Positions 23,656-35,474 of a DNA stretch of 64,000 bases are shown one piece after another (position 1 is the first letter of the stretch; each line of letters opens with the position of its first letter). The DNA is taken from positions 143,930 through 207,929 of the IMG/VR virus record IMGVR_UViG_3300031998_000008. One strand, given 5' to 3'. The notes below the pieces were generated by a model, which did no database searches, was not told where the DNA came from, and saw only the letters and a list, made by a program, of their open reading frames with translations. A program made the translations under genes and the position numbers. This stretch comes from a virus. Lineage: Duplodnaviria; Caudoviricetes.

Positions 23656-24242
23656 TGAAACATCAAGGGACTACATCAAATGACTATTGGTATGCGCCCG
23701 ATGGAGATAGATATAATTTTGTTAGAATGAAAACCTTACCAGGATACGAATCAAATGATTGTTTTGGCGATTTTGATTTATACAGAGCAAATCCTTATGT
23801 CGGGCCTGTTATTGTAAGTGATATAACATGCGATTATGCTGCACATTCACCTTATGTTGCATCACTTGACTATGATGACTATTTCTATACAAGAGAACAT
23901 TATGGTCCATGTTATAATATGACATTGACTTGCAACAATCCACTTATATTAAGACGAATTCTTGAATTGATAAGAGAATATGATTTTTCAGATTGTGGAA
24001 TTGATTATAAAAAATGTCTAAATACAACTTTAACATATGTTGGTAAAGTTGATAAAGAAGAAGATTTGCCAAAAATTGCAAAACTCGGAGAGGTTTGTAT
24101 TGCAGACAATAAAATGTTTGTTTACGGAGGTGATGGATGGGAAATGATAACTGATATGGTCCAAGAGGAAGAAGAAACTGAATGTAAAATGGAAATCTGT
24201 AAATATAAGAGAAGACATAGAGTTTTGTATGGAGCAATGTAA
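23655..24242 (+). CDS. hypothetical protein
   Basis: TAATG coupling to previous ORF. Confidence 0.7.
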   Translation: MKHQGTTSNDYWYAPDGDRYNFVRMKTLPGYESNDCFGDFDLYRANPYVGPVIVSDITCDYAAHSPYVASLDYDDYFYTREHYGPCYNMTLTCNNPLILRRILELIREYDFSDCGIDYKKCLNTTLTYVGKVDKEEDLPKIAKLGEVCIADNKMFVYGGDGWEMITDMVQEEEETECKMEICKYKRRHRVLYGAM

Positions 24243-24385
24243 ATATTCAATTGGAAAGCCTGAAATAAAAAAGGAAGAAAAAGAAGCATATGACAAAATA
24301 GTATCAGACCTTTCACATTACGTTGATGGCGAGATATTAAAAGAAATAAAAGAATACTATAATAATTATTAAAACACAATTAACT

Positions 24386-24706
24386 ATGAGTAAATTTAAC
24401 AAAATGTTGACCACAACTGGTTCTGACCTTATCGAAAAAAGAGCGCAAAACAGAACCAAGGATGCACAAGAGGCATTTAACGCTGAAAAGCAAGAAACTG
24501 AAAGAAGAATCAGAGAAATCGAAACTGAAGTTTCAGAAATGGAAGACATGGCAGTCCGTTCAACAGATGCACTTGTCGTTGGTGAAAACATCAATATGGT
24601 AGAGTGGACAAGAAAAAGAATCAACCATGAACTTGAATTGAATGACTTGAGAGTTGAACTTGAAATCATCAACAAACTCATCAAGGAATATTTTGAAGAG
24701 GATTAA
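24386..24706 (+). CDS. Coiled-coil hypothetical protein
   Basis: 106 aa, heptad-like and charged. Confidence 0.75.
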   Translation: MSKFNKMLTTTGSDLIEKRAQNRTKDAQEAFNAEKQETERRIREIETEVSEMEDMAVRSTDALVVGENINMVEWTRKRINHELELNDLRVELEIINKLIKEYFEED

Positions 24707-24710
24707 TTTG

Positions 24711-24968
24711 ATGGATTCAGAGAAAGAAATAAAGGAAAATGTGAGCCTCACGTATTTATTCCATGAGGCTCCTGAAATCCTACCACACTTGGCTTGTCAT
24801 CCAGATTACGATGGGACAATTCCATGCTTAGTGCAAAGAGAAGGTTGCAAATTCTACGAAATATTGTACTATGATTGCCATTATAAATGTTGGAATGATG
24901 CTGAAGATGATGACTATGCATATGGCAATGATATAAAATTGAAATATATACAACTTATCGAAGATTAA
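24711..24968 (+). CDS. hypothetical protein
   Basis: ATG at 24711 just after the previous stop. Confidence 0.6.
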   Translation: MDSEKEIKENVSLTYLFHEAPEILPHLACHPDYDGTIPCLVQREGCKFYEILYYDCHYKCWNDAEDDDYAYGNDIKLKYIQLIED

Positions 24969-25038
24969 AATTTTTGAAAAATATTTGCTTTTTTGAAATA
25001 AAGTTTGTATATTAGAATGTGAAACAAAGGTTTCTGAT

Positions 25039-25139
25039 GCCCGCACGATGCGAAGGCGGCAGGTAAAACTGCTAACCCTACGGAGTACAACATGCCACGT
25101 TGAAGTGGAGGTTCTCAGGTTCGAATCCTGATACGGGCA
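25039..25139 (+). ncRNA. tRNA-like element (aberrant D and anticodon region)
   Basis: GCCCGCA/TACGGGC acceptor, TCAGG-TTCGAAT-CCTGA T arm. Confidence 0.55.
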
Positions 25140-25329
25140 CAAGGGAAATGCGGTCCATGAAGCAAGCCGTATTCGTGTGTTAATGAACGAGACAACTCAT
25201 AGGTGAACACGAATTAGTTTAATAGCGAAGAAAAAACGCCCTTTTTTAAAATTTTTTTATTGGTTTTTGAATTTTTTTAAAAAAAAGTATATTTATAAGT
25301 GTAAAATATCGAAAAATTAAAAAGGATTT

Positions 25330-25562
25330 ATGCAAATGATGAGTAAACATATTAATTTGACAGAAAATACATGCGGTAATCTCAAAGGCTACGGCAAGGG
25401 CTCATCATATGCATGCTCACCAAGAGAAGATTGGCACTTTAGGAGTAAAGGGAAACGAGCGATAGGAAGTTGAAAATAAAAAGCACATAGGTTTCTAACC
25501 ACAACATATTCCCGACCTCTGAAAAGTTTCCCAATCAACAAAAACTACTCAGAGGTTTTTTT
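25330..25562 (+). promoter_or_regulatory. Putative leader peptide (47 aa) and attenuator
   Basis: ORF 25330-25473, then ACCTCTGA..TCAGAGGT-T7; GGGAAAC in the ORF complementary to GTTTCCC in the loop. Confidence 0.4.
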
Positions 25563-25598
25563 ATTGCTCAAAATAATAAAAAAATAATCCGAAAATCA

Positions 25599-25844
25599 AT
25601 GAAAGACACATTAAAACAAATCGTAACAGGTAGCGCAAAACTTGACTGCATGAGAAGTGGCGGAATCGCAGAGTATATAATTACTTCAAGCACAGGCAAC
25701 AGATACCTATTGGAGATTGACTTGTCAGACAAATTTGATTGTGGAGAAACGGCAACTTTTAGTCCATACTACGAAAAGGCTATTATATTAATGAGGTGGA
25801 TTAGAAGGGCCATGGAAAAAGAAAATTTGATAGAATTATCATAA
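25599..25844 (+). CDS. hypothetical protein
   Basis: 81 aa ORF. Confidence 0.7.
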   Translation: MKDTLKQIVTGSAKLDCMRSGGIAEYIITSSTGNRYLLEIDLSDKFDCGETATFSPYYEKAIILMRWIRRAMEKENLIELS

Positions 25845-25887
25845 TTTTGAAAGTTTGGCACGATATTTGATAAGTTTCATCACAAAT

Positions 25888-25959
25888 GGGTTTGTAGCTC
25901 AAAGGCAGAGCAACGGTCTGTTAAACCGTAGGTTGAGATTTCGAAATTCTCCATTCCCT
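25888..25959 (+). tRNA. tRNA-Asn(GTT), mismatched acceptor
   Basis: ACGGT-CTGTTAA-ACCGT. Confidence 0.65.
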
Positions 25960-25984
25960 CAATGTTAAACTAAAAATTAAAAAA

Positions 25985-26218
25985 ATGGGAGTGAGAAACA
26001 GAACATATCGGTCACACTACAAAATAGGAATAAATGGTGAATACGAAGAAAAGAAATCGTATGAGACCGAAAAAGAGGCCCTGAAAGTGGCAAGATTCTT
26101 GAATACAAGAGAAAACATAATCCACAAGATGGTAGCCTACAAATGCGTAAAATGCGGCAAGTGGCACGTTGGAAGCAACAACACCGTGCTTGATGAAGAG
26201 GAAAGAAAAAAAATATAA
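25985..26218 (+). CDS. Small zinc-ribbon-like protein
   Basis: K.SY.T..EA...AYKC.KCGKWHVG. Confidence 0.7.
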   Translation: MGVRNRTYRSHYKIGINGEYEEKKSYETEKEALKVARFLNTRENIIHKMVAYKCVKCGKWHVGSNNTVLDEEERKKI

Positions 26219-26289
26219 AAAAAAGTTGCAGAAAAATTTGTGATATTCAAAAATAGTTTGTATATTCACAATGTTCTTTGAAAACAAAT

Positions 26290-26400
26290 GGGCTGTAAAT
26301 CCGAACAAAATAGCGGAGTGACCTGCTGGTCGAAGTATTATGCATAAGAAGACCATACGGTGGCAATGCGGCCACTGGGGTTCGAGTCCCCAACAGTCCA
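26290..26400 (+). ncRNA. tRNA-like element with G3:U70/A73 acceptor
   Basis: GGGCTGT/ACAGTCC-A, TGGGG-TTCGAGT-CCCCA; no normal anticodon arm. Confidence 0.55.
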
Positions 26401-26405
26401 CATAT

Positions 26406-26476
26406 AGGTGGTTGGTGTAACGGTAACATAGCGGTCTCCAAAACCGTTGTTGAGGGTTCGAATCCTTCACCACCTG
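26406..26476 (+). tRNA. tRNA-Trp(CCA)
   Basis: GCGGT-CTCCAAA-ACCGT; full cloverleaf. Confidence 0.92.
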
Positions 26477-26594
26477 CAAATACTGAAGAGTGCTCTTCGG
26501 TACAGAGTGGATAGTTTAAAAGAAGCACTTGGAAAAACATATGGAGTCCAATCCGTAAGATACAAGTTCGAGTCTTGTTCTGCTTGCAAATAAC

Positions 26595-26675
26595 GCTCGT
26601 TAGGTCGTATAGGGGATTAGTACACTATAAGCGGGACGCTAAGAAACACTGGTTCGAAACCAGTCCAAACGAGCA
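26595..26675 (+). ncRNA. tRNA-like element
   Basis: GCTCGTT/AACGAGC with T arm ACTGG-TTCGAAA-CCAGT; no anticodon arm. Confidence 0.45.
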
Positions 26676-26680
26676 AAAAT

Positions 26681-26755
26681 GCACCTGTGGTCGAGTGGTC
26701 AAAGGCAATGGTCTGCAAAACCATACAATCGTTGGTTCGAATCCAACCAGGTGCT
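26681..26755 (+). tRNA. tRNA-Cys(GCA)
   Basis: ATGGT-CTGCAAA-ACCAT. Confidence 0.92.
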
Positions 26756-26764
26756 CAAGAATAT

Positions 26765-26864
26765 GGAGGATGTGATGTAATGGTAGGCATAGCAGGGTAG
26801 ACCTGTCGGGTGTAATAAATTGGCCATGAATAAGCCCGTGAAAGTTCGAATCTTTCCGCCTCCG
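26765..26864 (+). ncRNA. tRNA-like element (Ser/Tyr-type body, 5-nt anticodon loop)
   Basis: GGAGG/CCTCC-G, GCAGG-GTAGA-CCTGT, T arm. Confidence 0.45.
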
Positions 26865-26887
26865 CAAAGAAGTTCTTTGAAAAACAT

Positions 26888-27023
26888 TGAAGCGTGGTGA
26901 AATGGTAGACACGGCGGTAGTAAACAAAACGCTTACAGTGTATGTAAGTTAACAGCAGTTGGTATTACGTTTCAGGTAGAACCGCTGCCAGTGGCGTTGG
27001 AGGTTCGAATCCTTCCGCTTCAA
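26888..27023 (+). tRNA. tRNA-Leu-type gene with ACAGCA-module insert in the anticodon arm (anticodon uncertain, CAG or TAG)
   Basis: Leu D arm GTGAAATGGTAGACAC, long variable arm, GCGGT/ACCGC stem around a ~60 nt insert with GCTTACA/TGTAAGT-TAACAGCAG. Confidence 0.7.
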
Positions 27024-27075
27024 CAAAAAAGTTTGGCACGATTTTTGATATAGTGCTTATGTTCTTTGAAATTAT

Positions 27076-27148
27076 CGGGATGTAGTTCAGTTGGTAGAAC
27101 GCATGGTTTGGGACCACGAGGTCGCAGGTTCGAGTCCTGTCATCCCGA
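27076..27148 (+). tRNA. tRNA-Pro(TGG)
   Basis: CATGG-TTTGGGA-CCACG. Confidence 0.9.
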
Positions 27149-27262
27149 CAGAAAGATGAAGGCAACTGCATGGACATAATCAATGCCACTATGTTGAGCA
27201 CTAGAAAATATGGCAGATAAAGGTCCTTGGACAAACTCAACTACGGTTAAACTTCATCAAAT

Positions 27263-27432
27263 GGTGCTCTGGCAGATATGGTATATGCACCGGACTGAAT
27301 ACAGAATAAACTGTAAATTAAACTTCGTGTTGGCGAAGAGGAAAACGCAAGACGCTAATCGTCTAACTCATCGGTTCAAATCCGATACACGGAGCAAATC
27401 CGGCTAAGGTGGTTCGAGTCCACTGGGCACCA
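27263..27432 (+). tRNA. tRNA-Phe(GAA) with 97-nt anticodon-loop insert containing a nested tRNA-like gene
   Basis: CCGGA-CTGAA[27300-27396]AA-TCCGG; acceptor GGTGCTC/GGGCACC-A. Confidence 0.75.
27324..27394 (+). ncRNA. Nested tRNA-like element (5-nt anticodon loop CTAAT)
   Basis: TTCGTGT/ACACGGA, GCG/CGC D stem, AGACG/CGTCT, ATCGG-TTCAAAT-CCGAT. Confidence 0.7.
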
Positions 27433-27483
27433 CAGAAAATTTGATAATAAAATAGAAATTAAAATAAAAAAATAGGTAATACG

Positions 27484-27519
27484 ATGACACGATTTAAGAA
27501 ACACATAAAACGACTGTAA
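27484..27519 (+). promoter_or_regulatory. Mini-ORF MTRFKKHIKRL followed by a 10-bp hairpin
   Basis: A-rich leader then ATG; hairpin AATGATGGTA/TACCATCATT at 27522-27554. Confidence 0.4.
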
Positions 27520-27566
27520 GTAATGATGGTACACCTTGTAGTTTTACCATCATTCGGGAAGACTAT

Positions 27567-27639
27567 GGGGATGTAGCAGACACGGTTGTTGCGTGTGACT
27601 GAAAATCACAAGAAGTTGGGTCAGCACCAACCATCCCCA
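27567..27639 (+). tRNA. tRNA-Phe(GAA), atypical T loop
   Basis: TGTGA-CTGAAAA-TCACA; T loop GTCAGCA. Confidence 0.75.
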
Positions 27640-27645
27640 CAATAG

Positions 27646-27719
27646 GGGCTCATAGCATAATTGGTAGTTGCACCTGACTTTTAATCAGGGGGTTCTGGGT
27701 TCGAGTCCCAGTGGGCCCA
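27646..27719 (+). tRNA. tRNA-Lys(TTT)
   Basis: CCTGA-CTTTTAA-TCAGG. Confidence 0.92.
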
Positions 27720-27728
27720 CAAGCAAAT

Positions 27729-27804
27729 GCGCTTGTAACTCAGTGGTTTTCAGAGTACTTGACTTTTAATCAAGGAGTCGTGGGTTCGAGTCCCACCAGG
27801 CGCA
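27729..27804 (+). tRNA. tRNA-Lys(TTT)
   Basis: CTTGA-CTTTTAA-TCAAG. Confidence 0.92.
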
Positions 27805-27810
27805 CTAAAT

Positions 27811-27882
27811 GCCCCAATGGTGTAATGGATAGCACTAAAGTCCACGGAACTTTCAGTGAGGGTTCGAATCCTTCTTGGGGTA
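27811..27882 (+). tRNA. tRNA-Arg(ACG), C33
   Basis: AAAGT-CCACGGA-ACTTT. Confidence 0.85.
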
Positions 27883-27894
27883 CTTTTGACAAAC

Positions 27895-27965
27895 GTCCCT
27901 GTAGGTCAACGGTAGACTAGGTGACTCTTAATCATCGGATTTGGGTTCGAATCCCAGCGGGGGCA
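27895..27965 (+). tRNA. tRNA-Lys(CTT)
   Basis: GGTGA-CTCTTAA-TCATC. Confidence 0.9.
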
Positions 27966-28015
27966 CAAAACTTGGCACGGTTTTTGATAATGTGCAAACG
28001 TTCTTTGAAAAACAT

Positions 28016-28087
28016 GGCTCCATAGTTCAAGGGATAGAACGAGTGCCTTCTAAGCACCAAATCTAGGTTCGAGTCCTAGTGGGGCTA
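28016..28087 (+). tRNA. tRNA-Arg(TCT)
   Basis: AGTGC-CTTCTAA-GCACC. Confidence 0.9.
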
Positions 28088-28095
28088 CAAAACAT

Positions 28096-28167
28096 GCTCC
28101 TATAGTTCAAGGGAGAGAATAGAAGTTTCCTAAACTTTTGATTTAGGTTCGAGTCCTAATAGGAGTA
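28096..28167 (+). tRNA. tRNA-Arg(CCT)
   Basis: GAAGT-TTCCTAA-ACTTT. Confidence 0.9.
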
Positions 28168-28188
28168 CAAACTTAAATTAAATAGAAT

Positions 28189-28359
28189 ATGGGACTTACA
28201 TATGGCGAAGAGCCTGAACCTTGGATGAATAGCGATGCCCATAACAGGCATTGTTCACGTAAAAAAATTAAACGTGAGAGACATAAAAAACTCAGAAGAA
28301 TACCTCTTGACAAAGATGTCAGGTCAATGTTAAAAAGGTACTCAGGCTGGGAATGGTAA
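28189..28359 (+). CDS. Small basic hypothetical protein (56 aa)
   Basis: MGLTYGEEPEPW...RYSGWEW read by eye. Confidence 0.5.
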   Translation: MGLTYGEEPEPWMNSDAHNRHCSRKKIKRERHKKLRRIPLDKDVRSMLKRYSGWEW

Positions 28360-28363
28360 ATAT

Positions 28364-28435
28364 GCGGCGTTAGTACAACGGTTAGTATATCAGCTTGCCA
28401 TGCTGAAGATGTCGGTTCGATTCCGATACGCCGCT
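28364..28435 (+). tRNA. tRNA-Gly(GCC)
   Basis: TCAGC-TTGCCAT-GCTGA. Confidence 0.92.
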
Positions 28436-28557
28436 CTAAGGTAACTTTAGATTACCTGAAGGTGATATGTGGCATCCTCAAGTACAAGGGACACACCATA
28501 CTTTAGATGGTTATCGCTTTCCCTAGGGCGATTTTAAAATAGCACAGTAGGGGTGTA

Positions 28558-28628
28558 GGCGATGTAGTCTAACGGTAGAACGGGGCTCTCATAAGGCCCA
28601 TACGGAAGTTCAACTCTTCCCATCGCCA
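28558..28628 (+). tRNA. tRNA-Met/Ile2(CAT)
   Basis: GGGCT-CTCATAA-GGCCC. Confidence 0.85.
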
Positions 28629-28951
28629 CAAAAAAAAATAAAAAAAAAAGATTTGCTTTTTACAAATTCAATTTGTATATTTGCAATATCAAAAGTTCTT
28701 TGAAAGAATATATCAAGCCGCCCAGTCGGTAGTCGCAGATTACGGTTTGCGATAAAAGTGGTACTTGGAAGCTAATCCGCTCAGTCGGTAAAAGGTAAGG
28801 TGAGAGAGGTCATCTTTAAAACGTCAATTCGTAAGCCTGAAAAGTGATACTTAGCGTTTTCTCAAAAGGACAGAGTTCTTTGACATATTGTGAAATCTGA
28901 ATAAATACAACTTCTAAAGGTTGTCTGTAGTGATACACGCAACCTTCTTAC

Positions 28952-29038
28952 GGAGGCGTGGCTGAGTGGTTTAAGGCGGCGGTCTTGAAAACCGTTGGCC
29001 TCGTAAGGGGCCCGCAGGTTCGAATCCTGCCGCCTCCG
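28952..29038 (+). tRNA. tRNA-Ser(TGA)
   Basis: GCGGT-CTTGAAA-ACCGT, long variable arm. Confidence 0.93.
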
Positions 29039-29105
29039 CAAAAAAAATCTATAACGAGAATACGACATCCTGTAGTAGAGCACTTAGTATTTAAGTTATA
29101 GTAAT

Positions 29106-29233
29106 GCTGGAATCGTCTAATGGATTAGGACACGTAGCAAACAAAATGATTTCAGTCGGAAATGAAATTTAACAGCAGAATTTAGCAATGAAATTCCAAT
29201 TCCGAAATGGGGGTTCGAATCCCTCTTCCAGCT
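29106..29233 (+). tRNA. tRNA-Gly(TCC) with 55-nt ACAGCA-module insert (29135-29189)
   Basis: Removing the insert gives CGGAA-ATTCCAA-TTCCG; acceptor GCTGGAA/TTCCAGC-T. Confidence 0.8.
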
Positions 29234-29235
29234 CT

Positions 29236-29361
29236 TGCAAGTTGGTGTAGTGGCAGCACACGTAGCGACTAATTAGATTTCAGACATGGAATTAGACAGC
29301 AATATTTAAAATGCGATGAAACCATAATTCCGTGACAGAGGTTCGATTCCTCTACTTGCAA
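29236..29361 (+). tRNA. tRNA-Met/Ile2(CAT) with 55-nt ACAGCA-module insert (29263-29317)
   Basis: Removing the insert gives CGGAA-ACCATAA-TTCCG. Confidence 0.78.
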
Positions 29362-29373
29362 CTATTTAAGATT

Positions 29374-29495
29374 TGGGATGTGGTGTAACGGTAGCACACG
29401 TAGCACTTTATGATTTCAGACACGGAATTTTACAGCAATTATTTTAGCGATGAATTTGGGTTTCCGTGGTTTTGGTTCGACTCCAGACGTCCCGA
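29374..29495 (+). tRNA. tRNA-Pro(TGG) with 51-nt ACAGCA-module insert (29401-29451)
   Basis: Removing the insert gives CGGAA-TTTGGGT-TTCCG. Confidence 0.8.
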
Positions 29496-29517
29496 CATGT
29501 TTTTCAGGTTAAGGTAA

Positions 29518-30029
29518 TGAAATCCCAAGTGGGGCCCAATATATAACAGTCCTTGCTATATGGCGTGAGGATAAAGTTGGGAAAATATAGGTAAAAAATG
29601 CATTCTTACGCCCTAATGGTTGATATATTGTGGTATCAATGGTGTGTTTTTATGTGTGTGACTACGCAAATCACACAGATTTCAATCTAATGAAATACCA
29701 AGTGGGTCCTGATATAGCATATTCACAAAAAATGGTTTGTGAAGAAGTCAGGAAAATAGTGGTGAAGATGATTATTCAGTTAATCCTTAACGTTGGCATA
29801 TCGTGGAGCCAACTGTTCGTCTTTGTGTGCGTGACTACGCAAGTCGCACATATTTCGTCATAATGAAACCCCAAGTGGGACCCAATATACAATAGCCTTT
29901 GCTATATGGCGTAAAGGTAAAGTTGGGGTAATATAGGTAAAAATGCTTGGTTGCGCCCTAATGGTTGATATATCGTGGTATCAACAGTGTGTTTTTATGT
30001 GTGTGACTCCGCAAATCACACAGGTTTCA
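29518..30029 (+). ncRNA. Three tandem copies of a ~167-nt structured RNA (29518-29684, 29691-29857, 29864-30029)
   Basis: 173-nt period; closing stems TGAAATC/GATTTCA, TGAAATA/TATTTCG, TGAAACC/GGTTTCA; conserved CCAAGTGGG and GTGACT(A/C)CGCAA. Confidence 0.8.
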
Positions 30030-30116
30030 TTTTTTTTTGGTACACGTTAAAATGTTTTTTTTTATTCGCCTTTACTAATTTTTAAATTTCATTATATTTA
30101 TATAAAAATATTTATA

Positions 30117-30686
30117 ATGAAAAAGAATTTTAGAACAAAAGAAGAATATATTGAGGCTGCAAAGATGGCTCATAGTGTTGCTGAAATGTGCAGATTACTT
30201 GGTAGAAATCCATGTGGCGCTGGATATTATATTATGAAAAAGAAAATCAAAGAATATGATATAGATATAAGTCATTTTCTTGGGCAAGGATGGAATAAGG
30301 GTTTAAAGATGAACCCTAATGAGGGAAAAATTAAAAAATTAGAAGAAATATTAGTAGAAAATTCCACATATGCTAATTGTAATTGTTTAAAAAAAAGGTT
30401 ATTAAAAGAAGGTGTTAAAGAATATAGGTGTGAGTGTTGTGGGTTGACTGAGTGGAACGGTAAAGAAATTCCTTTAGAAATACATCACATAAATGGTGTT
30501 AGAAATGATAACAGGATTGAAAATCTTCAATTATTATGCCCAAATTGCCATGCTCAAACAGATAATTATTGTTCTAAAAATATGAAGAATGGCGGAGTGG
30601 TGGAATTGGTAGACACGACTGTCCCAAAAGCAGTTGCCGAGAGGCGTGTGGGTCCGACTCCCACCTCCGCTACAGAACTTAAATAA
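30117..30686 (+). CDS. HNH homing endonuclease
   Basis: CECCG..EWNG..LEIHHING..NDNRIENLQLLCPNCH. Confidence 0.9.
   Translation: MKKNFRTKEEYIEAAKMAHSVAEMCRLLGRNPCGAGYYIMKKKIKEYDIDISHFLGQGWNKGLKMNPNEGKIKKLEEILVENSTYANCNCLKKRLLKEGVKEYRCECCGLTEWNGKEIPLEIHHINGVRNDNRIENLQLLCPNCHAQTDNYCSKNMKNGGVVELVDTTVPKAVAERRVGPTPTSATELK
30591..30672 (+). tRNA. tRNA-Leu(CAA), C33, T loop TCCGA; lies inside the HNH ORF 3' end
   Basis: ACTGT-CCCAAAA-GCAGT; Leu D and variable arms. Confidence 0.85.
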
Positions 30687-30704
30687 TAATTAAAAATTAA
30701 CAAA

Positions 30705-31340
30705 ATGAAGAAAGTATTTATTTTATTGATGGCAATTTCTTTGATGTTTTCATTCAATTCTTGCGATTGGTTTAACAAGAACAAGGATAATGAGAAAAAA
30801 GAAATTATCGTGGAAAACGTAGTTAAAGCAGACAGAGACTACATGACAGAAAATTATGGTAATACCTACGTATGGTATGAAACACAAATTTCTTTGAATG
30901 ACTATCTTGATGAAGAATGCGATGGCTCATTCTCAGAGATTGTAGATGTGTTCCAAGTTATCACTACAACTGACAGTGTAACATTTGATACCAAAGTAAT
31001 TAAGATGTACCATGTTGCTGATTCTTCATACATTGAAGAAATTGAAGGTTTCTGGGTTGAAGACATGAATATGAACGATGAAATCATTTCAGTCACTTAC
31101 AAACAAGCATTCCAACTTATTAATGAAGTAAACTTCCCAAAACCACATTCAAAGAATTGTGTTTTGAGAAAAGAAGTTGGCCCAATTGAAGCTAATCCTC
31201 AGTATATCTTTGGCAACATTGAATCACAATTGTATGTTGATGCATTGACAGGTGATGTAACTGATGAAAGCCCAAGTTTCTGTGACGAAGTTATTGAAAA
31301 CGACAGCATCGAAGATGTAAACACTCAATTTGGTGAGTAG
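30705..31340 (+). CDS. Putative lipoprotein
   Basis: MKK + hydrophobic stretch + FNSC lipobox; acidic mature part. Confidence 0.75.
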   Translation: MKKVFILLMAISLMFSFNSCDWFNKNKDNEKKEIIVENVVKADRDYMTENYGNTYVWYETQISLNDYLDEECDGSFSEIVDVFQVITTTDSVTFDTKVIKMYHVADSSYIEEIEGFWVEDMNMNDEIISVTYKQAFQLINEVNFPKPHSKNCVLRKEVGPIEANPQYIFGNIESQLYVDALTGDVTDESPSFCDEVIENDSIEDVNTQFGE

Positions 31341-31372
31341 CCGTAATTAAATAAAAAAAGATATAAAAATTA

Positions 31373-31439
31373 GAAAACCTAACAGCAACTTTTAGTAATA
31401 ATCAGGACTTTCATTCCCGACAATAAACTAATGGTTTTC
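31373..31439 (+). ncRNA. ACAGCA-stem RNA displaying a Glu(TTC) anticodon arm
   Basis: GAAAACC-TAACAGCAA ... CAGGA-CTTTCAT-TCCCG ... GGTTTTC. Confidence 0.7.
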
Positions 31440-31458
31440 GTTTTTTAGAACCCATATA

Positions 31459-31529
31459 AGTAATCCTACAGCAACATTTCAACAAAACCTTTGATTGCAA
31501 TTCAAAACCATGTTAACAAACGGATTACT
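31459..31529 (+). ncRNA. ACAGCA-stem RNA displaying a Cys(GCA) anticodon arm
   Basis: AGTAATCC-TACAGCAA ... TTTGA-TTGCAAT-TCAAA ... GGATTACT. Confidence 0.75.
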
Positions 31530-31535
31530 GTAAAT

Positions 31536-31607
31536 GCCTCCTTAGTATAACGGTTATTATATCGGCTTTGTAACCCGAAGATGGCAGTCCGATTCTGCCA
31601 GGGGGCT
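31536..31607 (+). tRNA. tRNA-Thr(TGT), T loop TCCGA
   Basis: TCGGC-TTTGTAA-CCCGA. Confidence 0.82.
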
Positions 31608-31729
31608 CAAAACATTCGAGGGATTGAGGCTTGGTTTCCTATTCTGACCTTTTGACGAATTGTGTTGGAATACGAATAAGGAGCAAGAGGCTTGCATGCA
31701 CCTGGCTTGCTGTGTAGAGTGTTTTTAAT

Positions 31730-31813
31730 GGGAGCGTAACCGGTAATTGGTAGCCGCACGGACTGTAAATCCGTTCCCTTTTGGGACTGGTGGTTCGAGT
31801 CCACCCGCTCCCA
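31730..31813 (+). tRNA. tRNA-Tyr(GTA)
   Basis: ACGGA-CTGTAAA-TCCGT. Confidence 0.92.
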
Positions 31814-31905
31814 CAACAAGCACAAGTCTTTAGGCCCCCACACACATGGCAGCATAAGACTATATAAGTGGGAATACAAGCAAGAATTCTAAAGTGTTTG
31901 TTAAT

Positions 31906-31976
31906 GCGTTGTTAGTACAACGGCAGTATATTGGCTTCCCAAGCCGAAGATGTCAGTTCGATTCTGATACAGCGCT
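31906..31976 (+). tRNA. tRNA-Gly(CCC)
   Basis: TTGGC-TTCCCAA-GCCGA. Confidence 0.9.
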
Positions 31977-31984
31977 CATGTTTT

Positions 31985-32066
31985 CGGCTTGTGGTGGAAC
32001 TGGTAGACACGCATGTCTTAGGAACATGTGCCGAAAGGCGTGTGGGTTCGACTCCCACCTTGCCGA
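31985..32066 (+). tRNA. tRNA-Leu(TAG)
   Basis: CATGT-CTTAGGA-ACATG; two T-T mismatches in acceptor. Confidence 0.85.
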
Positions 32067-32192
32067 CTGAAAATATATCAACGAAGCTTTGACTAATGAA
32101 GCCATGGATTTTACTGTGAGAAGTCCTATTGTGGACCGTTGATTTTTTAGATTATACTTTTTAGTTGATTATACTTTTTAGTTGAAAATATA

Positions 32193-32283
32193 AGGAAACT
32201 TGCAGCAAATTTAATTAGGTTCAATAAATTTAACTTCCAATTAGATTTTAGATGGTTCGAGTCCATTACAAACAAGGTTTCCT
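32193..32283 (+). ncRNA. GCAGCA-stem RNA with Gly(TCC) anticodon arm and T arm
   Basis: AGGAAACTT-GCAGCAA ... TTTAA-CTTCCAA-TTAGA ... GATGG-TTCGAGT-CCATT ... AGGTTTCCT. Confidence 0.75.
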
Positions 32284-32289
32284 GAGTTT

Positions 32290-32363
32290 GGGAGAGTAGC
32301 GTAGCTGGTTAGCGCAACGGACTGTTAATCCGTGGGTCGTGGGTTCGATTCCCACCTCTCCCG
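32290..32363 (+). tRNA. tRNA-Asn(GTT)
   Basis: ACGGA-CTGTTAA-TCCGT. Confidence 0.92.
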
Positions 32364-32368
32364 CACAA

Positions 32369-32511
32369 AGTAAGCTTGCAGCAATAATTCAGTTTATTTT
32401 CGCAGATACCGAAGAGATGTCGGTTCGATTCCGGCCCCCCATACAAATTTAACTTTCTTATCATATGGGGGTAGTTTAATGGTAGAATATTACAAACAAC
32501 AAAGGCTTACT
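32369..32511 (+). ncRNA. Circularly permuted tRNA mimic (GAT loop) on a GCAGCA stem
   Basis: Order: stem, anticodon arm, T arm, CCCCCAT, linker, ATGGGGG, D arm, stem (AGTAAGCT/GGCTTACT). Confidence 0.8.
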
Positions 32512-32527
32512 GTCAATACAAAGCAAA

Positions 32528-32620
32528 AGAAATCTTACAGCAAATATCAACTTGATTAGTTCGATTCTAATATTAGCCGCCATAAACAGGCTGATTGCAA
32601 AGGTGCAGTTAATGATTTCT
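32528..32620 (+). ncRNA. Permuted tRNA mimic (T arm, closed acceptor, D-like arm; no anticodon) on an ACAGCA stem
   Basis: AGAAATC/GATTTCT; ATTAG-TTCGATT-CTAAT; ATTAGCC-GCCA..GGCTGAT; TGCA/TGCA. Confidence 0.75.
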
Positions 32621-32635
32621 GAATGCTTTTTTTAT

Positions 32636-32709
32636 AGGGGTATGGTTGAATTGGTTACAAGTACCGGCCTGTCACGCCGGTGGTGCGGGTTCGAGTCCCG
32701 TTATCCCTG
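32636..32709 (+). tRNA. tRNA-Asp(GTC)
   Basis: CCGGC-CTGTCAC-GCCGG. Confidence 0.92.
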
Positions 32710-32719
32710 CAATAGATAA

Positions 32720-32849
32720 AGGAATTCAACAGCAACTTTTAATTTCGTTTGACTGTAAATCAAAAGGTTATTGGTTCGAATCCAGTTGTTGCATTAGAGA
32801 AATCGAAGGCGACATAGCTCAATTGGTAGAGTAAGAAAAAGTGATTCCT
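32720..32849 (+). ncRNA. Circularly permuted tRNA-Tyr(GTA) mimic on an ACAGCA stem
   Basis: AGGAATT/GATTCCT; TTTGA-CTGTAAA-TCAAA; T arm; TGTTGC..GCGACA; TAGCTCAATTGGTAGAGT. Confidence 0.82.
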
Positions 32850-32866
32850 GTGCATCTATTTTTTAT

Positions 32867-32940
32867 GGGCCTGTGGTTGAATGGTTTACAATGCCGCCCT
32901 GTCACGGCGTGTGGTGCGGGTTCGAATCCCGTCAGGCCCG
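32867..32940 (+). tRNA. tRNA-Asp(GTC)
   Basis: CGCC-CTGTCAC-GGCG. Confidence 0.9.
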
Positions 32941-32951
32941 CATAGATTGAA

Positions 32952-33106
32952 AGAAATTTAACAGCAAGAGACTTTATGGTAAACACATTTCTCTGCAAAA
33001 GAAAGATTGTTGGTTCGAGTCCAACTGTAGCATTGAAGACGGAGCCCTCATTTAGCGAGGTGCGAGTTTTTGGCTGCATAGTGAAATTGGAAAAAGAATG
33101 ATTTCT
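32952..33106 (+). ncRNA. Circularly permuted tRNA-Cys(GCA) mimic on an ACAGCA stem (break in the D loop)
   Basis: AGAAATT/GATTTCT; TGGTAAACAC; TTTCT-CTGCAAA-AGAAA; T arm; TGTAGC..GCTGCA-TAGTG. Confidence 0.8.
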
Positions 33107-33234
33107 GTAAATCTATAACATAGGAAACAAAGGACACACGTACCTTAAACAAGTACGAAAAGTTAGTGCAAGCCGAATAAAGTCGCCAAGCGTCTCAGGT
33201 CGGTAGCATGATAGTGAAATGTAAATTTCTTAAT

Positions 33235-33307
33235 GGGGAGTTCATTTAGCGGTTTAGGATGCAGGTTCGACAGACCTGTCACTATGGTTCGATTCCATAA
33301 CACCCCA
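33235..33307 (+). tRNA. tRNA-Val(GAC), C33
   Basis: CAGGT-TCGACAG-ACCTG. Confidence 0.7.
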
Positions 33308-33310
33308 CAA

Positions 33311-33661
33311 TCGGATGTTGTTGATATTCAAAGAAAAGTCCGTAAGACGAGGGTTCGACTCCCTCCGGGTCCACCATATTGGGTGCGCCATGTTGAGTAC
33401 CAACCATACTAGTTATACGGTTCTTATGATTCATGGTACAATACCAAGTAATTTGAAAAACTTGGTTCGGGTTTAAAATTGGGGTTCAACTCCCTGGCAT
33501 CCAACAACTTTCAAACATGGGCCCGCTTGGATTTGATTGCGAATGAATACAATGGAAGGAGATATTCGAGAAGCCAATAAATGGCAATGAAAATTATGCA
33601 TATGCAGTTGCAGCCTAAGCTAGGTTAGCAAATGCAGGTTGGCAGCGAACCAAATCGCTGC
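33311..33661 (+). ncRNA. ssrA: Two-piece (circularly permuted) tmRNA
   Basis: Acceptor piece ends T arm-CGGGTCC-ACCA at 33376; coding piece starts GGGCCCG..GGATTTGA at 33519 (G3:U70); tag GNENYAYAVAA-stop at 33583-33618. Confidence 0.88.
33380..33504 (+). ncRNA. tRNA-like element in the tmRNA intervening segment
   Basis: TGGGTGC/GCATCCA-A, TGGGG-TTCAACT-CCCTG, ACCAAGT/ACTTGGT hairpin. Confidence 0.55.
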
Positions 33662-33665
33662 AAAT

Positions 33666-33738
33666 GGCGGGTTCGTATAATAGGTTAGTACGCCACCCTC
33701 TCAAGGTGGAAATAGAGGTTCGAACCCACTACTCGCTA
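33666..33738 (+). tRNA. tRNA-Glu(CTC)
   Basis: CCACC-CTCTCAA-GGTGG. Confidence 0.82.
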
Positions 33739-33748
33739 CAAAATACAT

Positions 33749-33820
33749 CGTGCCATCGAATAATGGTTAGTTCGCTGCCCTTTCACGGCAGTAATACGGG
33801 TTCGAGTCCCGTTGGCACGA
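33749..33820 (+). tRNA. tRNA-Glu(TTC)
   Basis: CTGCC-CTTTCAC-GGCAG. Confidence 0.92.
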
Positions 33821-33894
33821 CTCTCGCCGAGTTAGTTTCTAATCCGGAGCGCTTAACGTACACACGTTAGTAAGTAGGAAACAAGGCGAGTTTT

Positions 33895-33969
33895 CGGCTA
33901 GTGGTGTAATTGGTTAGCACGTCACCCTGATAAGGTGAAAGTTTGGTGGTTCGAGTCCACCCTAGCCGA
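33895..33969 (+). tRNA. tRNA-Ile(GAT)
   Basis: TCACC-CTGATAA-GGTGA. Confidence 0.92.
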
Positions 33970-34167
33970 CAAAATATGCAAAAATTTGTGAAATAATTTA
34001 TTTTTTTGTATATTTATAAAACAAGAAAGTAGTATTCCTGTCAAGGGCGAAACAATTGATGGGTTAGAGCCATACCGTTAGAAACACGGTCATAATGTTA
34101 GGGTACAAGTCGGGTAAAACTGACACCAGTCGGAATGACAAGTTAAATTATGGTTCACTTTCTAAAT

Positions 34168-34242
34168 GGGGCGTTAGCTCAGTCTGGCTAGAGCGGTAGC
34201 TTTGCAAGCTTCAGGTCGTGGGTTCGAATCCCACACGCTCCA
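34168..34242 (+). tRNA. tRNA-Ala(TGC)
   Basis: GGGGCGT/ACGCTCC (G3:U70), loop TTTGCAA. Confidence 0.9.
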
Positions 34243-34608
34243 CAAAACATATTCAGGTATAGAAGACGCAAATTCTAAGAGACTGCTCTGTGTTTTGGAC
34301 GATATATGTGTACCAAACCAATGTTCAAGTTGCGTATTGAACTGAGGGCATGTATAATCGAAAAAAAGTGTCTATGGTGTAAGTGGTGAGCACACCCAAT
34401 GGAGGGAGGTACGGTTCGAGTCCGTGGATTACTTCAATTTTTTTCTTATTATTTAAAAGGATGAAGTTGGTAGCGCCACAACGTAATGTAACAAGTCCCT
34501 GAAATGGTCATTTCAAACTGTGTTCCTTATCGTAGTTAAGGGAAAGTCTTTTACGGTTTCTATAATGCGAAAGCCAAAATGTATCAAAGGAAGCAAACCG
34601 TTTTATTT

Positions 34609-34735
34609 GGAGGTATAGTTTAGTGGTAGAATGACGTAAAATGAAAATAGCATTTTGGTCATTTAAAAATGTTAACAGCATATGAGTTCAATGCCTTTCC
34701 CGCCGTTGATGTAGGTTCGATTCCTGCTGCCTCCG
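34609..34735 (+). tRNA. tRNA (TTC, Glu) with 56-nt ACAGCA-module insert (34637-34692)
   Basis: Removing the insert gives ACGGC-CTTTCCC-GCCGT. Confidence 0.75.
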
Positions 34736-34889
34736 CTATGAGATACCAATAGGTTTACTTAATCATATGTCAGAAGTACAATGACGTTAGAGTATGGGAT
34801 TGCCGGAAGCTAACGGTGTGATACATAACTTCGCACAATTGGTAACAATTCATGTTAGTTGCAAATGACATGATGCTCATTTTTTTTAT

Positions 34890-35021
34890 TGGCCAGTAGC
34901 TCAGTTGGCAGAGCAACGGAATGAAAAGAAAACGCATTTTGGCCTAAAGATGTTAACAGCAATGAAAAATTTTCGACTGTTAATCCGTGGGCCGCAGGTT
35001 CGAGTCCTGCCTGACCAGCCA
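34890..35021 (+). tRNA. tRNA-Asn(GTT) with 56-nt ACAGCA-module insert (34920-34975)
   Basis: Removing the insert gives ACGGA-CTGTTAA-TCCGT; encoded GCCA end. Confidence 0.82.
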
Positions 35022-35131
35022 ATATGTCTTGTGTTGGTGCGTAACCATCGGGCACTAAATGTTGAAACAAACAGGATTAAGTTCCTCGAAAGCCATTAAT
35101 CAGTTCAACTCTGATGGGACATATTTTTTAT

Positions 35132-35207
35132 GCATGTATGAAGCAGATTGGATGTGCTACCAGCGTGATAAGGCTGGGCTATGTTGGTTCGAATCCAACT
35201 GCATGCG
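35132..35207 (+). tRNA. Atypical tRNA-Ile(GAT)-like, 8-nt anticodon loop
   Basis: CCAGC-GTGATAAG-GCTGG; GCATGTA/TGCATGC. Confidence 0.55.
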
Positions 35208-35248
35208 CAAATTACCTGAACACATAGGGTGATTTATCTGTACAGATT

Positions 35249-35407: not shown

Positions 35408-35474
35408 GGAAAACATACAGCAACTTTAATTCAGTTACAATCTTTTAAATTGTGGGACTAAAATTTCGTTTTCC
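35408..35474 (+). ncRNA. ACAGCA-stem RNA displaying a Lys(TTT) anticodon arm
   Basis: GGAAAAC-ATACAGCAA ... ACAAT-CTTTTAA-ATTGT ... GTTTTCC. Confidence 0.78.

What the first reader, a model, noticed from the sequence alone, without database searches (positions are those of the whole stretch)
29106..29495. Three adjacent tRNAs with same-site 51-55 nt inserts at position 28/29
Seen: Gly(TCC), CAT and Pro(TGG) genes all read ...CACG|TAGC...GATTTCAG...(T/G)GAA(A/T)T...ACAGCA...GC(A/G)AT|GAA-loop-TTCCG. Exact excision restores the same perfect CGGAA/TTCCG anticodon stem although acceptors and anticodons differ. Known: bacterial tRNA introns are group I or II and far longer. Inference: either a new small-intron class needing a protein endonuclease and ligase, or an unspliced fifth arm. 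Similar 56-nt inserts occur at 29/30 (34637-34692) and 30/31 (34920-34975).
Basis: partly seen in the sequence, partly recalled or inferred. Interest (0 to 1): 0.85.

Follow-up and report, generated by a model that had tools for sequence, protein, structure and literature searches.

The report
Ro60-type RNA handle grafted into tRNAs
The 51-56-base inserts in tRNA genes of this giant phage are copies of a widespread small-RNA "handle" (a 7-bp stem beside ACAGCAA) that in other phages travels with a Ro60-like ring protein. They are therefore more likely a retained protein-docking arm on tRNA look-alikes than a new kind of intron, though splicing is not excluded.

Summary
Gly(TCC), CAT and Pro(TGG) tRNA genes carry 55, 55 and 51 nt between nt 28 and 29. 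Two more carry 56 nt at 29/30 and 30/31, and exact excision gives canonical tRNAs.

The inserts are not a private oddity. Each is a "handle": an A-rich strand, a covarying 7-bp helix, two bases, then ACAGCA(A). I found 14 handles in the window's tRNA array. Six are capped by a loop and grafted into tRNAs. Eight are open-ended and enclose rotated tRNA look-alikes or tiny hairpins.

- **Spread:** the module recurs in more than 116 IMG/VR phage contigs and in gut bacteria.
- **Partner:** a DUF2828 gene occurs in 39/50 handle-bearing phage records (19/20 near-complete ones) against 0/31 controls. It lies directly beside handles in 12/12 loci.
- **Fold:** a DUF2828 model matches Ro60 structures.
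- **Mimicry:** handles also close RNAs that cannot be tRNAs.

The best reading is a Y-RNA-like particle, with the insert kept as a fifth arm. A true splicing system remains possible (about 0.2). No RNA data could be obtained, and the partner gene is absent from the 56%-complete record.

This scan has met the same handle/DUF2828 system before on other genomes. I found no paper describing it.

The parts
26888..27024 (+). tRNA-like gene (long variable arm, irregular GTA-containing loop) carrying a capped handle: helix 26931-26937 / 26943-26949, then TA, then ACAGCA at 26952-26957
   Evidence: ARAGORN intron mode. Helix search. Covariance model R1 hit 26921-26970, E 1e-5. The exact junction is uncertain.
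29106..29233 (+). tRNA-Gly(TCC)-like gene with an insert between nt 28 and 29
   Evidence: Read by hand. ARAGORN after excision. Conserved with its insert in relative G001 at 87% identity.
29135..29189 (+). 55-nt insert, a capped handle: A-rich strand, helix 29148-29154 / 29163-29169, TA, ACAGCA at 29172-29177, then a 12-nt linker
   Evidence: R1 hit 29138-29190, E 2e-4.
29236..29361 (+). tRNA(CAT)-like gene (loop ACCATAA, C at position 33) with an insert between nt 28 and 29
   Evidence: In relative G001 a normal tRNA-Gln occupies this slot.
29263..29317 (+). 55-nt insert, a capped handle variant: helix 29276-29282 / 29287-29293, AG, ACAGCA at 29296-29301
   Evidence: Not reached by R1 at E<=10. 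Paralogous to the Gly insert.
29374..29495 (+). tRNA-Pro(TGG)-like gene with an insert between nt 28 and 29
   Evidence: 96% identical, insert included, in G001.
29401..29451 (+). 51-nt insert, a capped handle variant: helix 29412-29417 / 29424-29429, TT, ACAGCA at 29432-29437
   Evidence: R1 scores only E 5.7.
34609..34735 (+). tRNA-Glu(TTC)-like gene (C at position 37) with a 56-nt capped handle at 34637-34692 (29/30): helix 34650-34656 / 34666-34672, TA, ACAGCA at 34675
   Evidence: Rfam tRNA 43.7 bits.. R1 E 0.014.
34891..35018 (+). tRNA-Asn(GTT)-like gene with a 56-nt capped handle at 34920-34975 (30/31): helix 34934-34940 / 34947-34953, TA, ACAGCA at 34956
   Evidence: Rfam tRNA 49.3 bits.. 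R1 E 5e-8. The orthologue in G001 scores R1 E 2e-11.
31373..31439 (+). Open mini handle RNA: GAAAACC, TA, ACAGCAA, about 44 nt of cargo, then GGTTTTC. There is no tRNA part.
   Evidence: Weak R1 hit at 31361-31400.
31460..31528 (+). Open mini handle RNA: GTAATCC, T, ACAGCAA, an anticodon-arm-like hairpin, then GGATTAC followed by TGT
32193..32283 (+). Open handle RNA, GCAGCAA variant: AGGAAAC ... GTTTCCT. The cargo holds a T-arm.
   Evidence: R1 hit 32180-32220, E 0.29.
32369..32511 (+). Open handle RNA, GCAGCAA variant: AGTAAGC ... GCTTACT followed by GT. The cargo is a rotated (circularly permuted) tRNA look-alike whose acceptor stem is closed by a loop.
32528..32620 (+). Open handle RNA: AGAAATC, TT, ACAGCAA ... 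GATTTCT. The cargo has a T-arm and a 7-bp acceptor stem closed by G-CCA-TAAACA.
32720..32849 (+). Open handle RNA: AGGAATT, CA, ACAGCAA ... GATTCCT followed by GT. The cargo is a rotated tRNA look-alike with a GTA anticodon arm.
   Evidence: Weak Rfam tRNA hit (31.6 bits, 32732-32793) and YrlA hit (23 bits, 32766-32832).
32952..33106 (+). Open handle RNA: AGAAATT, TA, ACAGCAA ... GATTTCT followed by GT. The cargo is a rotated tRNA look-alike with a GCA anticodon arm.
   Evidence: The orthologue in G001 has compensatory changes in the helix and in the anticodon stem.
35408..35474 (+). Open mini handle RNA: GGAAAAC, AT, ACAGCAA, about 44 nt of cargo, then GTTTTCC

Best explanation
Each insert is a capped copy of a conserved RNA "handle". 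Its parts, in order, are an A-rich strand, a 7-bp helix of free sequence, two bases, then ACAGCA(A).

I propose that the handle is the docking site of a Ro60-like ring protein of family DUF2828. I further propose that it stays in the mature RNA as an extra arm leaving the 5' strand of the anticodon stem.

On this reading the insert-bearing genes are one-piece members of a family of handle-tagged tRNA mimics. The rest of the family are open-ended handle RNAs in the same array. These enclose rotated tRNA look-alikes, single hairpins or almost nothing. Such RNAs would act as YrlA-type Y RNAs do: the handle holds the ring protein, and the tRNA-like body engages tRNA-binding enzymes or nucleases.

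Shown here:
- The inserts belong to the handle family.
- The helix covaries.
- Across phages the handle co-occurs with DUF2828 genes and lies beside them.
- DUF2828 has a Ro60-like fold.

Inferred, not shown:
- Physical binding of the handle by DUF2828.
- Retention of the arm in the mature RNA.
- The biological role.
For: 1. Family membership.
- A model built only from 34 capped handles of other phages and bacteria finds four of the six window inserts at E 5e-8 to 0.014.
- It also finds the orthologues in relative G001.

2. One module, two topologies.
- In more than 116 IMG/VR contigs the same helix plus TAACAGCAA either sits inside a tRNA or closes a rotated tRNA look-alike. In the second case the helix forms between leader and trailer.
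- 76 of 105 distinct hits have a perfect 7-bp partner, against 24 of 105 for a reversed decoy.
- All 7 helix pairs show double changes.

3. Handles close RNAs that cannot be tRNAs.
- Three mini cassettes lie in the window.
- Three mini RNAs lie between a promoter and the DUF2828 gene of Listeria phage LMTA-94.
- Mycobacteriophage Finnry also carries a mini RNA and an anticodon-arm-only RNA.

4. Partner protein.
- PF11443 occurs in 39/50 handle-bearing phage records and in 19/20 of those at least 90% complete. It occurs in 0/31 control records.
- In 12/12 loci, ACAGCAA motifs lie on the gene's own strand, mostly just upstream of it.
- In KVP40 and a Felix O1-like phage the gene abuts the tRNA array and open handles.

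5. Fold.
- The AF2 model (pLDDT 83.6) matches Ro60/Rsr/TROVE structures in its top hits, all twelve with E <= 0.001, over its whole length (TM 0.36-0.59).
- It has an invariant D-x-S-x-S MIDAS motif.

6. Precedent.
- YrlA Y RNAs are rotated tRNA mimics held by the Ro60-binding stem.
- M. smegmatis YrlA is cut by RNase P and gains CCA while it stays bound to Rsr (PMC4201824).
- The middle handle RNA of Finnry matches Rfam YrlA in its tRNA-like part at 39.5 bits.

7. The cargo behaves like interchangeable mimicry.
- Lachnospiraceae capped-handle tRNAs keep the D arm, the T arm and, in most, the anticodon stem, but swap anticodon loops (GAT, GTC, TCT, TTT) and acceptor stems.
- In the window, six of the eight handle-borne anticodons duplicate normal tRNAs of the same array.
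- Several anticodon loops break the U33/R37 rule.

8. No splicing machinery.
- No splicing endonuclease, RtcB or Rnl2-type ligase is in the record.
- RtcB is in only 3/50 handle phages.
Against: - No DUF2828 or TROVE gene is found in this record or in relative G001 by Pfam, by a phage-specific profile or by hhalign. The records are only 56% and 29% complete, so the partner is unproven for this phage. One complete handle-bearing phage also lacks it (G016).
- Exact excision restores a perfect 5-bp anticodon stem in every case, and the bodies are otherwise good tRNAs. That is what an intron would require.
- Gly(TCC), and possibly CAT, are not supplied by any normal tRNA of the array in either phage. 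That would make sense if they mature into working tRNAs.
- Many rotated forms place N-CCA exactly after the acceptor 3' strand.
- An arm at 28/29 should clash with the ribosome, so a retained arm implies that these RNAs do not decode. This rests on general knowledge of tRNA-ribosome contacts and was not tested.
- No RNA evidence of any kind is available.
Confidence: 0.6

Rival explanations
1. True intron and permuted-tRNA system. The handle marks sequence to be removed. A handle-recognising factor, perhaps DUF2828, positions an endonuclease at the base of the arm, and a host or phage ligase reseals the nick in the anticodon stem. Capped forms would yield normal tRNAs. Open forms would yield circles that RNase P then opens. 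This would be a bacterial counterpart of the archaeal bulge-helix-bulge system.
For: - Exact excisability at 28/29, 29/30 and 30/31, giving canonical tRNAs.
- In the other phages and bacteria parsed, junctions cluster at nt 27-31 whatever the insert length, 39-56 nt.
- The same module serves both the intron-like and the rotated gene order, as the bulge-helix-bulge motif does in archaea and algae.
- N-CCA is encoded in many acceptor loops.
- Gly(TCC) exists only in handle form in both related phages.
Against: - Handles also enclose cargo far too small to be a tRNA.
- The associated protein has an RNA-binding Ro60 fold with no nuclease or ligase domain.
- RtcB is rare in handle phages.
- No endonuclease or ligase is found in this record.
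- No bulge-helix-bulge motif and no ribozyme match.
- The linker between ACAGCAA and the junction varies from 4 to 15 nt, so the cut could not be measured from the motif.
- Anticodons are mostly redundant with normal tRNAs, and hypervariable among orthologues.
Confidence: 0.2
2. Selfish or decaying insertions. The handle spreads by recombination or tandem duplication within tRNA arrays. The interrupted genes are inactive pseudo-tRNAs with no role of their own.
For: - The array is a mosaic containing an HNH endonuclease ORF, degenerate tRNA-like pieces and tandem handle genes sharing one D-arm and anticodon-stem segment.
- Some loops are irregular: C33, C37 and G33.
- Tandem duplication converts the capped and open forms into each other. 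This is an inference.
Against: - The Gly and Pro genes are kept with their inserts at 87-96% identity in a diverged relative, with pair-preserving changes in the T stem and the handle helix.
- Cloverleaf pairing stays intact across dozens of phyla-spanning examples.
- The handle shows strong sequence conservation and helix covariation.
- It is tightly linked to one protein family.
Confidence: 0.1
3. Working five-armed tRNAs. The RNAs are charged and decode with the arm in place, which the ribosome tolerates as it tolerates a long variable arm.
For: Intact acceptor, D, T and anticodon arms. Gly(TCC) fills a gap in the tRNA set.
Against: - Position 28/29 lies in the part of the anticodon stem that the 30S subunit grips. 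This is general knowledge and was not tested here.
- Open forms have closed acceptor stems.
- The mini forms have no tRNA body.
Confidence: 0.05

Closest known systems
YrlA-type Y RNAs with Ro60/Rsr (Rfam RF02553; Chen et al. 2014, PMC4201824), and Thermus phage phiLo Ro60 with Yrl1/Yrl2 (PMC12135203)
   Same: - A small RNA whose protein-binding stem is joined to a tRNA-like body at the anticodon-stem position.
- The gene order is rotated, with the acceptor stem closed by a loop.
- The RNA genes lie beside the gene for a ring protein made of HEAT repeats plus a vWA domain.
- Both occur in phages.
[quoted passage not shown]
- The tRNA-like part of one handle RNA scores 39.5 bits on RF02553.
   Different: - The binding motif is ACAGCAA beside a 7-bp helix, not GNCGAA/CGAA in a bulged stem.
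- The protein is DUF2828. No Pfam TROVE match was found in this record, and a DUF2828 sequence profile did not reach any Ro60 chain in the PDB.
- Here the handle can be capped and inserted into an otherwise complete tRNA that keeps its own anticodon arm and free acceptor end. I did not find this described for Y RNAs.
- No window RNA reaches the RF02553 threshold.
Class I RNAs of dictyostelid amoebae (PMC7919456)
   Same: - A 6-7-bp stem of free sequence joins the 5' and 3' ends.
- A conserved 11-nt motif lies right after the 5' stem strand.
- The interior is variable.
- The RNAs start AAG and end CUGU. The open phage handles start (A)AGG/AAG and end C(T)TGT.
- From my own memory and earlier scan notes the motif reads CCUUACAGCAA. 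The text I could read does not print its letters.
   Different: - These are eukaryotic, 42-65 nt long, carry no tRNA cargo and are reported to bind an RRM protein.
- The authors found no relatives outside Dictyostelia.
- A link to DUF2828 was not tested here.
Archaeal/eukaryal bulge-helix-bulge tRNA introns, and the permuted tRNA genes of Cyanidioschyzon
   Same: One short RNA module appears both as an intron-like insert, including at positions 29/30 and 30/31, and at the junction of rotated tRNA genes. Exact excision restores the tRNA.
   Different: - There are no 3-nt bulges flanking a 4-bp helix.
- No EndA-family endonuclease is present.
- The host range is bacterial and phage.
- The module carries a conserved sequence and also encloses non-tRNA cargo.
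Group I introns of bacterial and phage tRNA genes (Rfam RF00028)
   Same: They interrupt the anticodon arm of tRNA genes in bacteria and phages.
   Different: They are 200 nt or longer, sit in the anticodon loop and self-splice. No RF00028 or other ribozyme match was found here at E <= 1, and 51-56 nt is too short.

Membership tests
Handle RNAs (7-bp helix + ACAGCAA; uncatalogued, defined here and in earlier scan notes) | A helix of free sequence, followed by two bases and then ACAGCA(A), with an A-rich strand 5' of the other helix strand | tested here: met
   All six capped and eight open copies in the window. The helix covaries in the reference set.
Handle RNAs (7-bp helix + ACAGCAA; uncatalogued, defined here and in earlier scan notes) | A significant hit to a covariance model built from other genomes' capped handles | tested here: inconclusive
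   Met for four inserts (E 5e-8 to 0.014). The Pro insert scores E 5.7 and the CAT insert is not hit, because both vary the TA before ACAGCA.
Handle RNAs (7-bp helix + ACAGCAA; uncatalogued, defined here and in earlier scan notes) | A DUF2828 (Ro60-like) gene in the same genome | tested here: inconclusive
   None in the 207,929-bp record (56% complete) or in relative G001 (29% complete) by Pfam, a phage profile or hhalign. Present in 19/20 near-complete handle-bearing phages.
YrlA Y RNA (RF02553) | A Ro60-binding motif GNCGAAN0-1G near the 5' end | tested here: not met
   The handles carry ACAGCAA instead. Motif definition taken from PMC4201824.
YrlA Y RNA (RF02553) | A tRNA-like domain (T, D and acceptor arms) attached to the protein-binding stem, scoring above the Rfam threshold | tested here: inconclusive
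   The architecture is the same. The best window hit is 23.1 bits and the best phage hit 39.5 bits, against a threshold of 69.
Bulge-helix-bulge tRNA introns | Two 3-nt bulges around a 4-bp helix at the splice sites | tested here: not met
   Neither possible register pairs when checked by hand, and the predicted folds show no such motif.
Bulge-helix-bulge tRNA introns | An EndA-family splicing endonuclease and an RtcB-type ligase | tested here: not met
   PF01974 and PF01139 are absent from the incomplete record. RtcB is in 3/50 handle phages. Host enzymes were not testable.
Group I / group II introns and small self-cleaving ribozymes | A match to the catalytic core | tested here: not met
   There is no Rfam match other than tRNA, tmRNA and weak noise in 22000-38500 at E <= 1. 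Self-cleavage itself is not testable with these tools.
Functional tRNA | A canonical cloverleaf with a 7-nt loop, U33 and purine 37 after excision | tested here: inconclusive
   The cloverleaf is met for five genes. U33/R37 is met for Gly, Pro and Asn. The CAT gene has C33, the TTC gene has C37, and the gene at 26888 has an irregular loop.

The most novel reading that the evidence does not exclude
The handle plus its Ro60-like protein is the recognition half of a bacterial and phage tRNA splicing and permuted-tRNA maturation pathway. The arm would be cut off at its base and the nicked anticodon stem resealed. Phages and gut bacteria would then possess a protein-dependent tRNA intron system analogous to, but unrelated to, the archaeal bulge-helix-bulge system.
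Probability: 0.18. Interest if true: 0.95.

Novelty: new variant of a known kind. Interest (0 to 1): 0.72.

Why it matters
- **A large blind spot in annotation.** Gene finders miss these genes or call them "tRNA-Undet" or pseudo-tRNAs. Yet the module is present in hundreds of phages, including KVP40, Felix O1-like, Listeria A511-like, mycobacteriophages and a cyanophage, and in gut bacteria.
- **A second, uncatalogued Ro60/Y-RNA-type system.** It has its own RNA motif. Its mimicry of tRNA goes as far as a complete tRNA with a docking arm. That points to a phage strategy aimed at tRNA-handling enzymes, such as PNPase, tRNA repair enzymes or anticodon nucleases.
- **A possible link to an old puzzle.** The system may connect to the unexplained Class I RNAs of social amoebae.
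- **If the minority reading is right,** this would be the first protein-dependent tRNA splicing system in bacteria.
- **Either outcome is directly testable** in cultured phages.

Tried and rejected
- **Bulge-helix-bulge motif.** I checked both possible registers by hand and inspected the predicted folds. There is no such motif.
- **Known ribozymes and introns.** The Rfam scan at E <= 1 finds nothing in the inserts.
- **Over-loose patterns.** Two first patterns on IMG/VR gave only chance hits in coding DNA.
- **Relatives via flanking proteins.** The 686-aa neighbour found nothing. The 211-aa ORF found a locus without an array.
- **BLAST of the trio against GenBank phages.** It hit only the neighbouring tRNA-Ser.
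- **A second helix between the two linkers.** It is convincing in some phages, for example a 7-bp pairing in L122, but it is not general in alignment A2. I dropped it as a defining feature.
- **Automated excision parser.** It placed junctions mostly at nt 28-29, but it mis-called several genes, including the window's Gly gene. I use it only for the junction and length ranges, not for U33/R37 statistics.
- **"Open" helix calls.** These have a high chance rate (22/105 with a decoy). Window copies were accepted only with the flanking A-rich and GT signatures.
- **Sequence-profile search of DUF2828 against PDB.** It reached only a vWA-like stretch. The Ro60 likeness rests on the predicted fold.
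- **RtcB as a consistent partner.** Rejected, at 3/50.
- **The 686-aa array neighbour and all 45 ORFs of 330-900 aa.** None resembles DUF2828.
Full report
**Setting.** The window is the last 64 kb of a 207,929-bp IMG/VR phage record that CheckV rates 56% complete. Bases 23.1-37.1 kb hold an array of 34 ordinary tRNA genes, all on the + strand. The array also holds a permuted tmRNA and a CTA suppressor tRNA.

**The observation.**
- Gly(TCC) is at 29106-29233, CAT at 29236-29361 and Pro(TGG) at 29374-29495.
- They carry 55, 55 and 51 nt between nt 28 and 29. The boundary cannot slide.
- All three share the D-arm and anticodon-stem segment GCACACG ... GAA-loop-TTCCG.
- The two further genes carry 56 nt at 34637-34692 (29/30) and 34920-34975 (30/31).
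- After in-silico excision, ARAGORN calls five standard tRNAs.
- The Rfam tRNA model bridges the inserts of the last two genes at 43.7 and 49.3 bits.
- A sixth case lies at 26888-27024.

**What the inserts are.** All six share one core: an A-rich strand, a 7-bp helix closed by a 4-8-nt loop, two bases (mostly TA), then ACAGCA(A).
- ACAGCA occurs 14 times on the + strand of the array and once on the - strand.
- The extra copies lie outside tRNA inserts. There, the seven bases before the motif pair with a strand 50-140 nt downstream. That strand is preceded by an A-rich run and followed by GT.
- These eight open cassettes enclose rotated tRNA look-alikes at 32369-32511, 32528-32620, 32720-32849 and 32952-33106. 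A fifth, at 32193-32283, holds only a T-arm.
- In the rotated forms the order is 3' half, acceptor stem closed by a loop, then 5' half. One loop reads G-CCA.
- The other three open cassettes enclose only about 44 nt, at 31373-31439, 31460-31528 and 35408-35474.

- Reading the hits showed the same two topologies.
- The helix covaries freely, for example AGGATAC/GTATCCT, GGAAAC/GTTTCC and AGACTC/GAGTCT.
- Of 105 distinct hits, 76 have a perfect partner, against 24 for a reversed decoy. Capped forms account for 21 real against 2 decoy.
- In an alignment of 34 capped handles, all seven pairs show double changes. This set was selected for pairing, so the diversity of pair types is the informative measure, not the percentage paired.
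- A covariance model from this set, which holds no window sequence, finds four window inserts at E 5e-8 to 0.014. It also finds the orthologues in a related phage.
- The same scan of bacterial genomes found capped-handle tRNAs in Lachnospiraceae, Oscillospiraceae and others.

**A related phage.** Record G001 (106 kb, 29% complete) has a syntenic array.
- It keeps the Gly and Pro genes with their inserts at 87% and 96% identity.
- The changes preserve pairing: G.U to A-U in the handle helix and U.G to U-A in the T stem. Small indels fall in the linkers.
- The CAT gene is replaced there by a normal tRNA-Gln.

**The partner protein.** Earlier notes of this scan on other genomes said the handle tracks DUF2828, a Ro60-shaped protein. 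I tested this myself.
- PF11443 is present in 39 of 50 handle-bearing phage records, and in 19 of the 20 that are at least 90% complete.
- It is present in none of 31 control records taken from chance hits. The controls are on average smaller.
- In 12 of 12 loci around the gene, one to seven ACAGCAA motifs lie on the gene's strand, in 11 of them just upstream of the gene.
- An AlphaFold model built from nine phage sequences (pLDDT 83.6) has Ro60, Rsr or TROVE structures as all twelve hits with E <= 0.001, over the full length (TM 0.36-0.59).
- The C-terminal half has an invariant MIDAS motif.
- The family occurs in 711 GenBank phage records.

In cultured phages the gene sits next to handle RNAs:

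| Phage | What lies beside the DUF2828 gene |
|---|---|
| KVP40, Felix O1-like AYO145A | the tRNA array and open handles |
| Listeria phage LMTA-94 | three mini handle RNAs between a promoter and the gene |
| Mycobacteriophage Finnry | three open handle RNAs downstream of the "Ro-like RNA binding protein" gene; the middle one matches Rfam YrlA in its tRNA-like part (39.5 bits) |
| Synechococcus phage B23 | a capped handle inside an annotated "tRNA-Undet" |

**Intron or arm?**

For splicing:
- Every insert is exactly excisable.
- Junctions cluster at nt 27-31.
- The module serves two gene orders, as the bulge-helix-bulge motif does.
- CCA is encoded in many closed acceptor loops.
- Gly(TCC) exists only in handle form in both phages.

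Against splicing:
- Handles enclose cargo that cannot be a tRNA.
- The partner is an RNA-binding ring without a nuclease or ligase domain.
- RtcB is rare, at 3/50.
- This record has no EndA, RtcB or Rnl2-type gene.
- There is no bulge-helix-bulge motif and no ribozyme match.
- The distance from ACAGCAA to the junction varies.
- Orthologous bacterial handle tRNAs swap anticodon loops and acceptor stems while keeping the rest. That is the behaviour of a mimic, not of a decoder.
- Most handle-borne anticodons in the window duplicate normal tRNAs.
- M. smegmatis YrlA is a rotated tRNA mimic that RNase P cuts and that receives CCA while it stays bound to Rsr (PMC4201824). The CCA loops therefore need no splicing to explain them.

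I put the retained-arm, Y-RNA-like reading at about 0.6 and splicing at about 0.2.

**Limits.**
- No RNA data could be obtained.
- The partner gene is absent from the available 56% of this genome and from the relative.
- Binding, retention of the arm and function are all inferred.

**Literature.** Full-text searches found no description of permuted or handle-bearing tRNA genes in phages. They found no functional study of DUF2828.
- Known Ro60 partners use a GNCGAA/CGAA motif.
- The stem plus 11-nt-motif architecture, the AAG start and the CUGU end of dictyostelid Class I RNAs match the open handles closely.
- The motif letters of those Class I RNAs come from my memory and from earlier scan notes. 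I did not see them in text I could read.

Noticed in passing
window 33314-33618 (+): Circularly permuted (two-piece) tmRNA gene inside the tRNA array. Rfam tmRNA_permuted scores 63.4 bits. ARAGORN gives the tag GNENYAYAVAA.
   Followed up: no
window 23147-23218 (+): tRNA with a CTA anticodon (an amber suppressor, which ARAGORN labels Pyl) at the start of the array. ORFs are nevertheless long under code 11, so TAG recoding is not obvious.
   Followed up: no
window 30117-30686 (+): An HNH endonuclease ORF (Pfam HNH_3/HNH) inside the tRNA array. Its 3' end overlaps tRNA-Leu(CAA) at 30591-30673.
   Followed up: no
window 35249-35403 (+) and 35130-35210 (+): Two further tRNA-like genes with good T-arms but no ACAGCA motif. 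The first has about 64-80 extra nt, and ARAGORN in intron mode calls it Gln(ttg). The nature of these genes is unexplained.
   Followed up: partly
window 26505-26586 (+), 32732-32793 (+), 32970-33032 (+): Weak Rfam tRNA hits (28.6-33.5 bits). The last two are the D-arm-poor cargo of open handle RNAs. The first is an unassigned tRNA-like piece.
   Followed up: partly
window 29106-29495 (+): The three tandem handle tRNAs share one D-arm and anticodon-stem segment although their acceptor stems, T arms and anticodons differ. This suggests segmental copying (gene conversion) of the handle with its flanks.
   Followed up: partly
L291, L361, L365, L372, L347, L366, L344 (Lachnospiraceae genomes): Orthologous capped-handle tRNAs in a conserved genomic context. 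They have near-identical D and T arms and, in most, the same anticodon stem, but different anticodon loops (GAT, GTC, TCT, TTT) and acceptor stems.
   Followed up: partly
G016 (record of L147, 401 kb, 100% complete): A complete handle-bearing phage with no DUF2828 hit but with an RtcB gene. It is the one exception among 20 near-complete records.
   Followed up: no
L400 3230-3470 (Synechococcus phage B23): Cyanophage handles use variant motifs: TCAGCAA and TCAGCCA in open forms, and TAACTGCAA in the capped tRNA. The motif therefore tolerates lineage-specific changes that a strict ACAGCA search misses.
   Followed up: partly
window 20367-22050 (+): Phage-encoded ClpP protease (246 bits) and ThyX-like thymidylate synthase just upstream of the array. 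A calcineurin-like phosphoesterase lies at 19499-20356.
   Followed up: no
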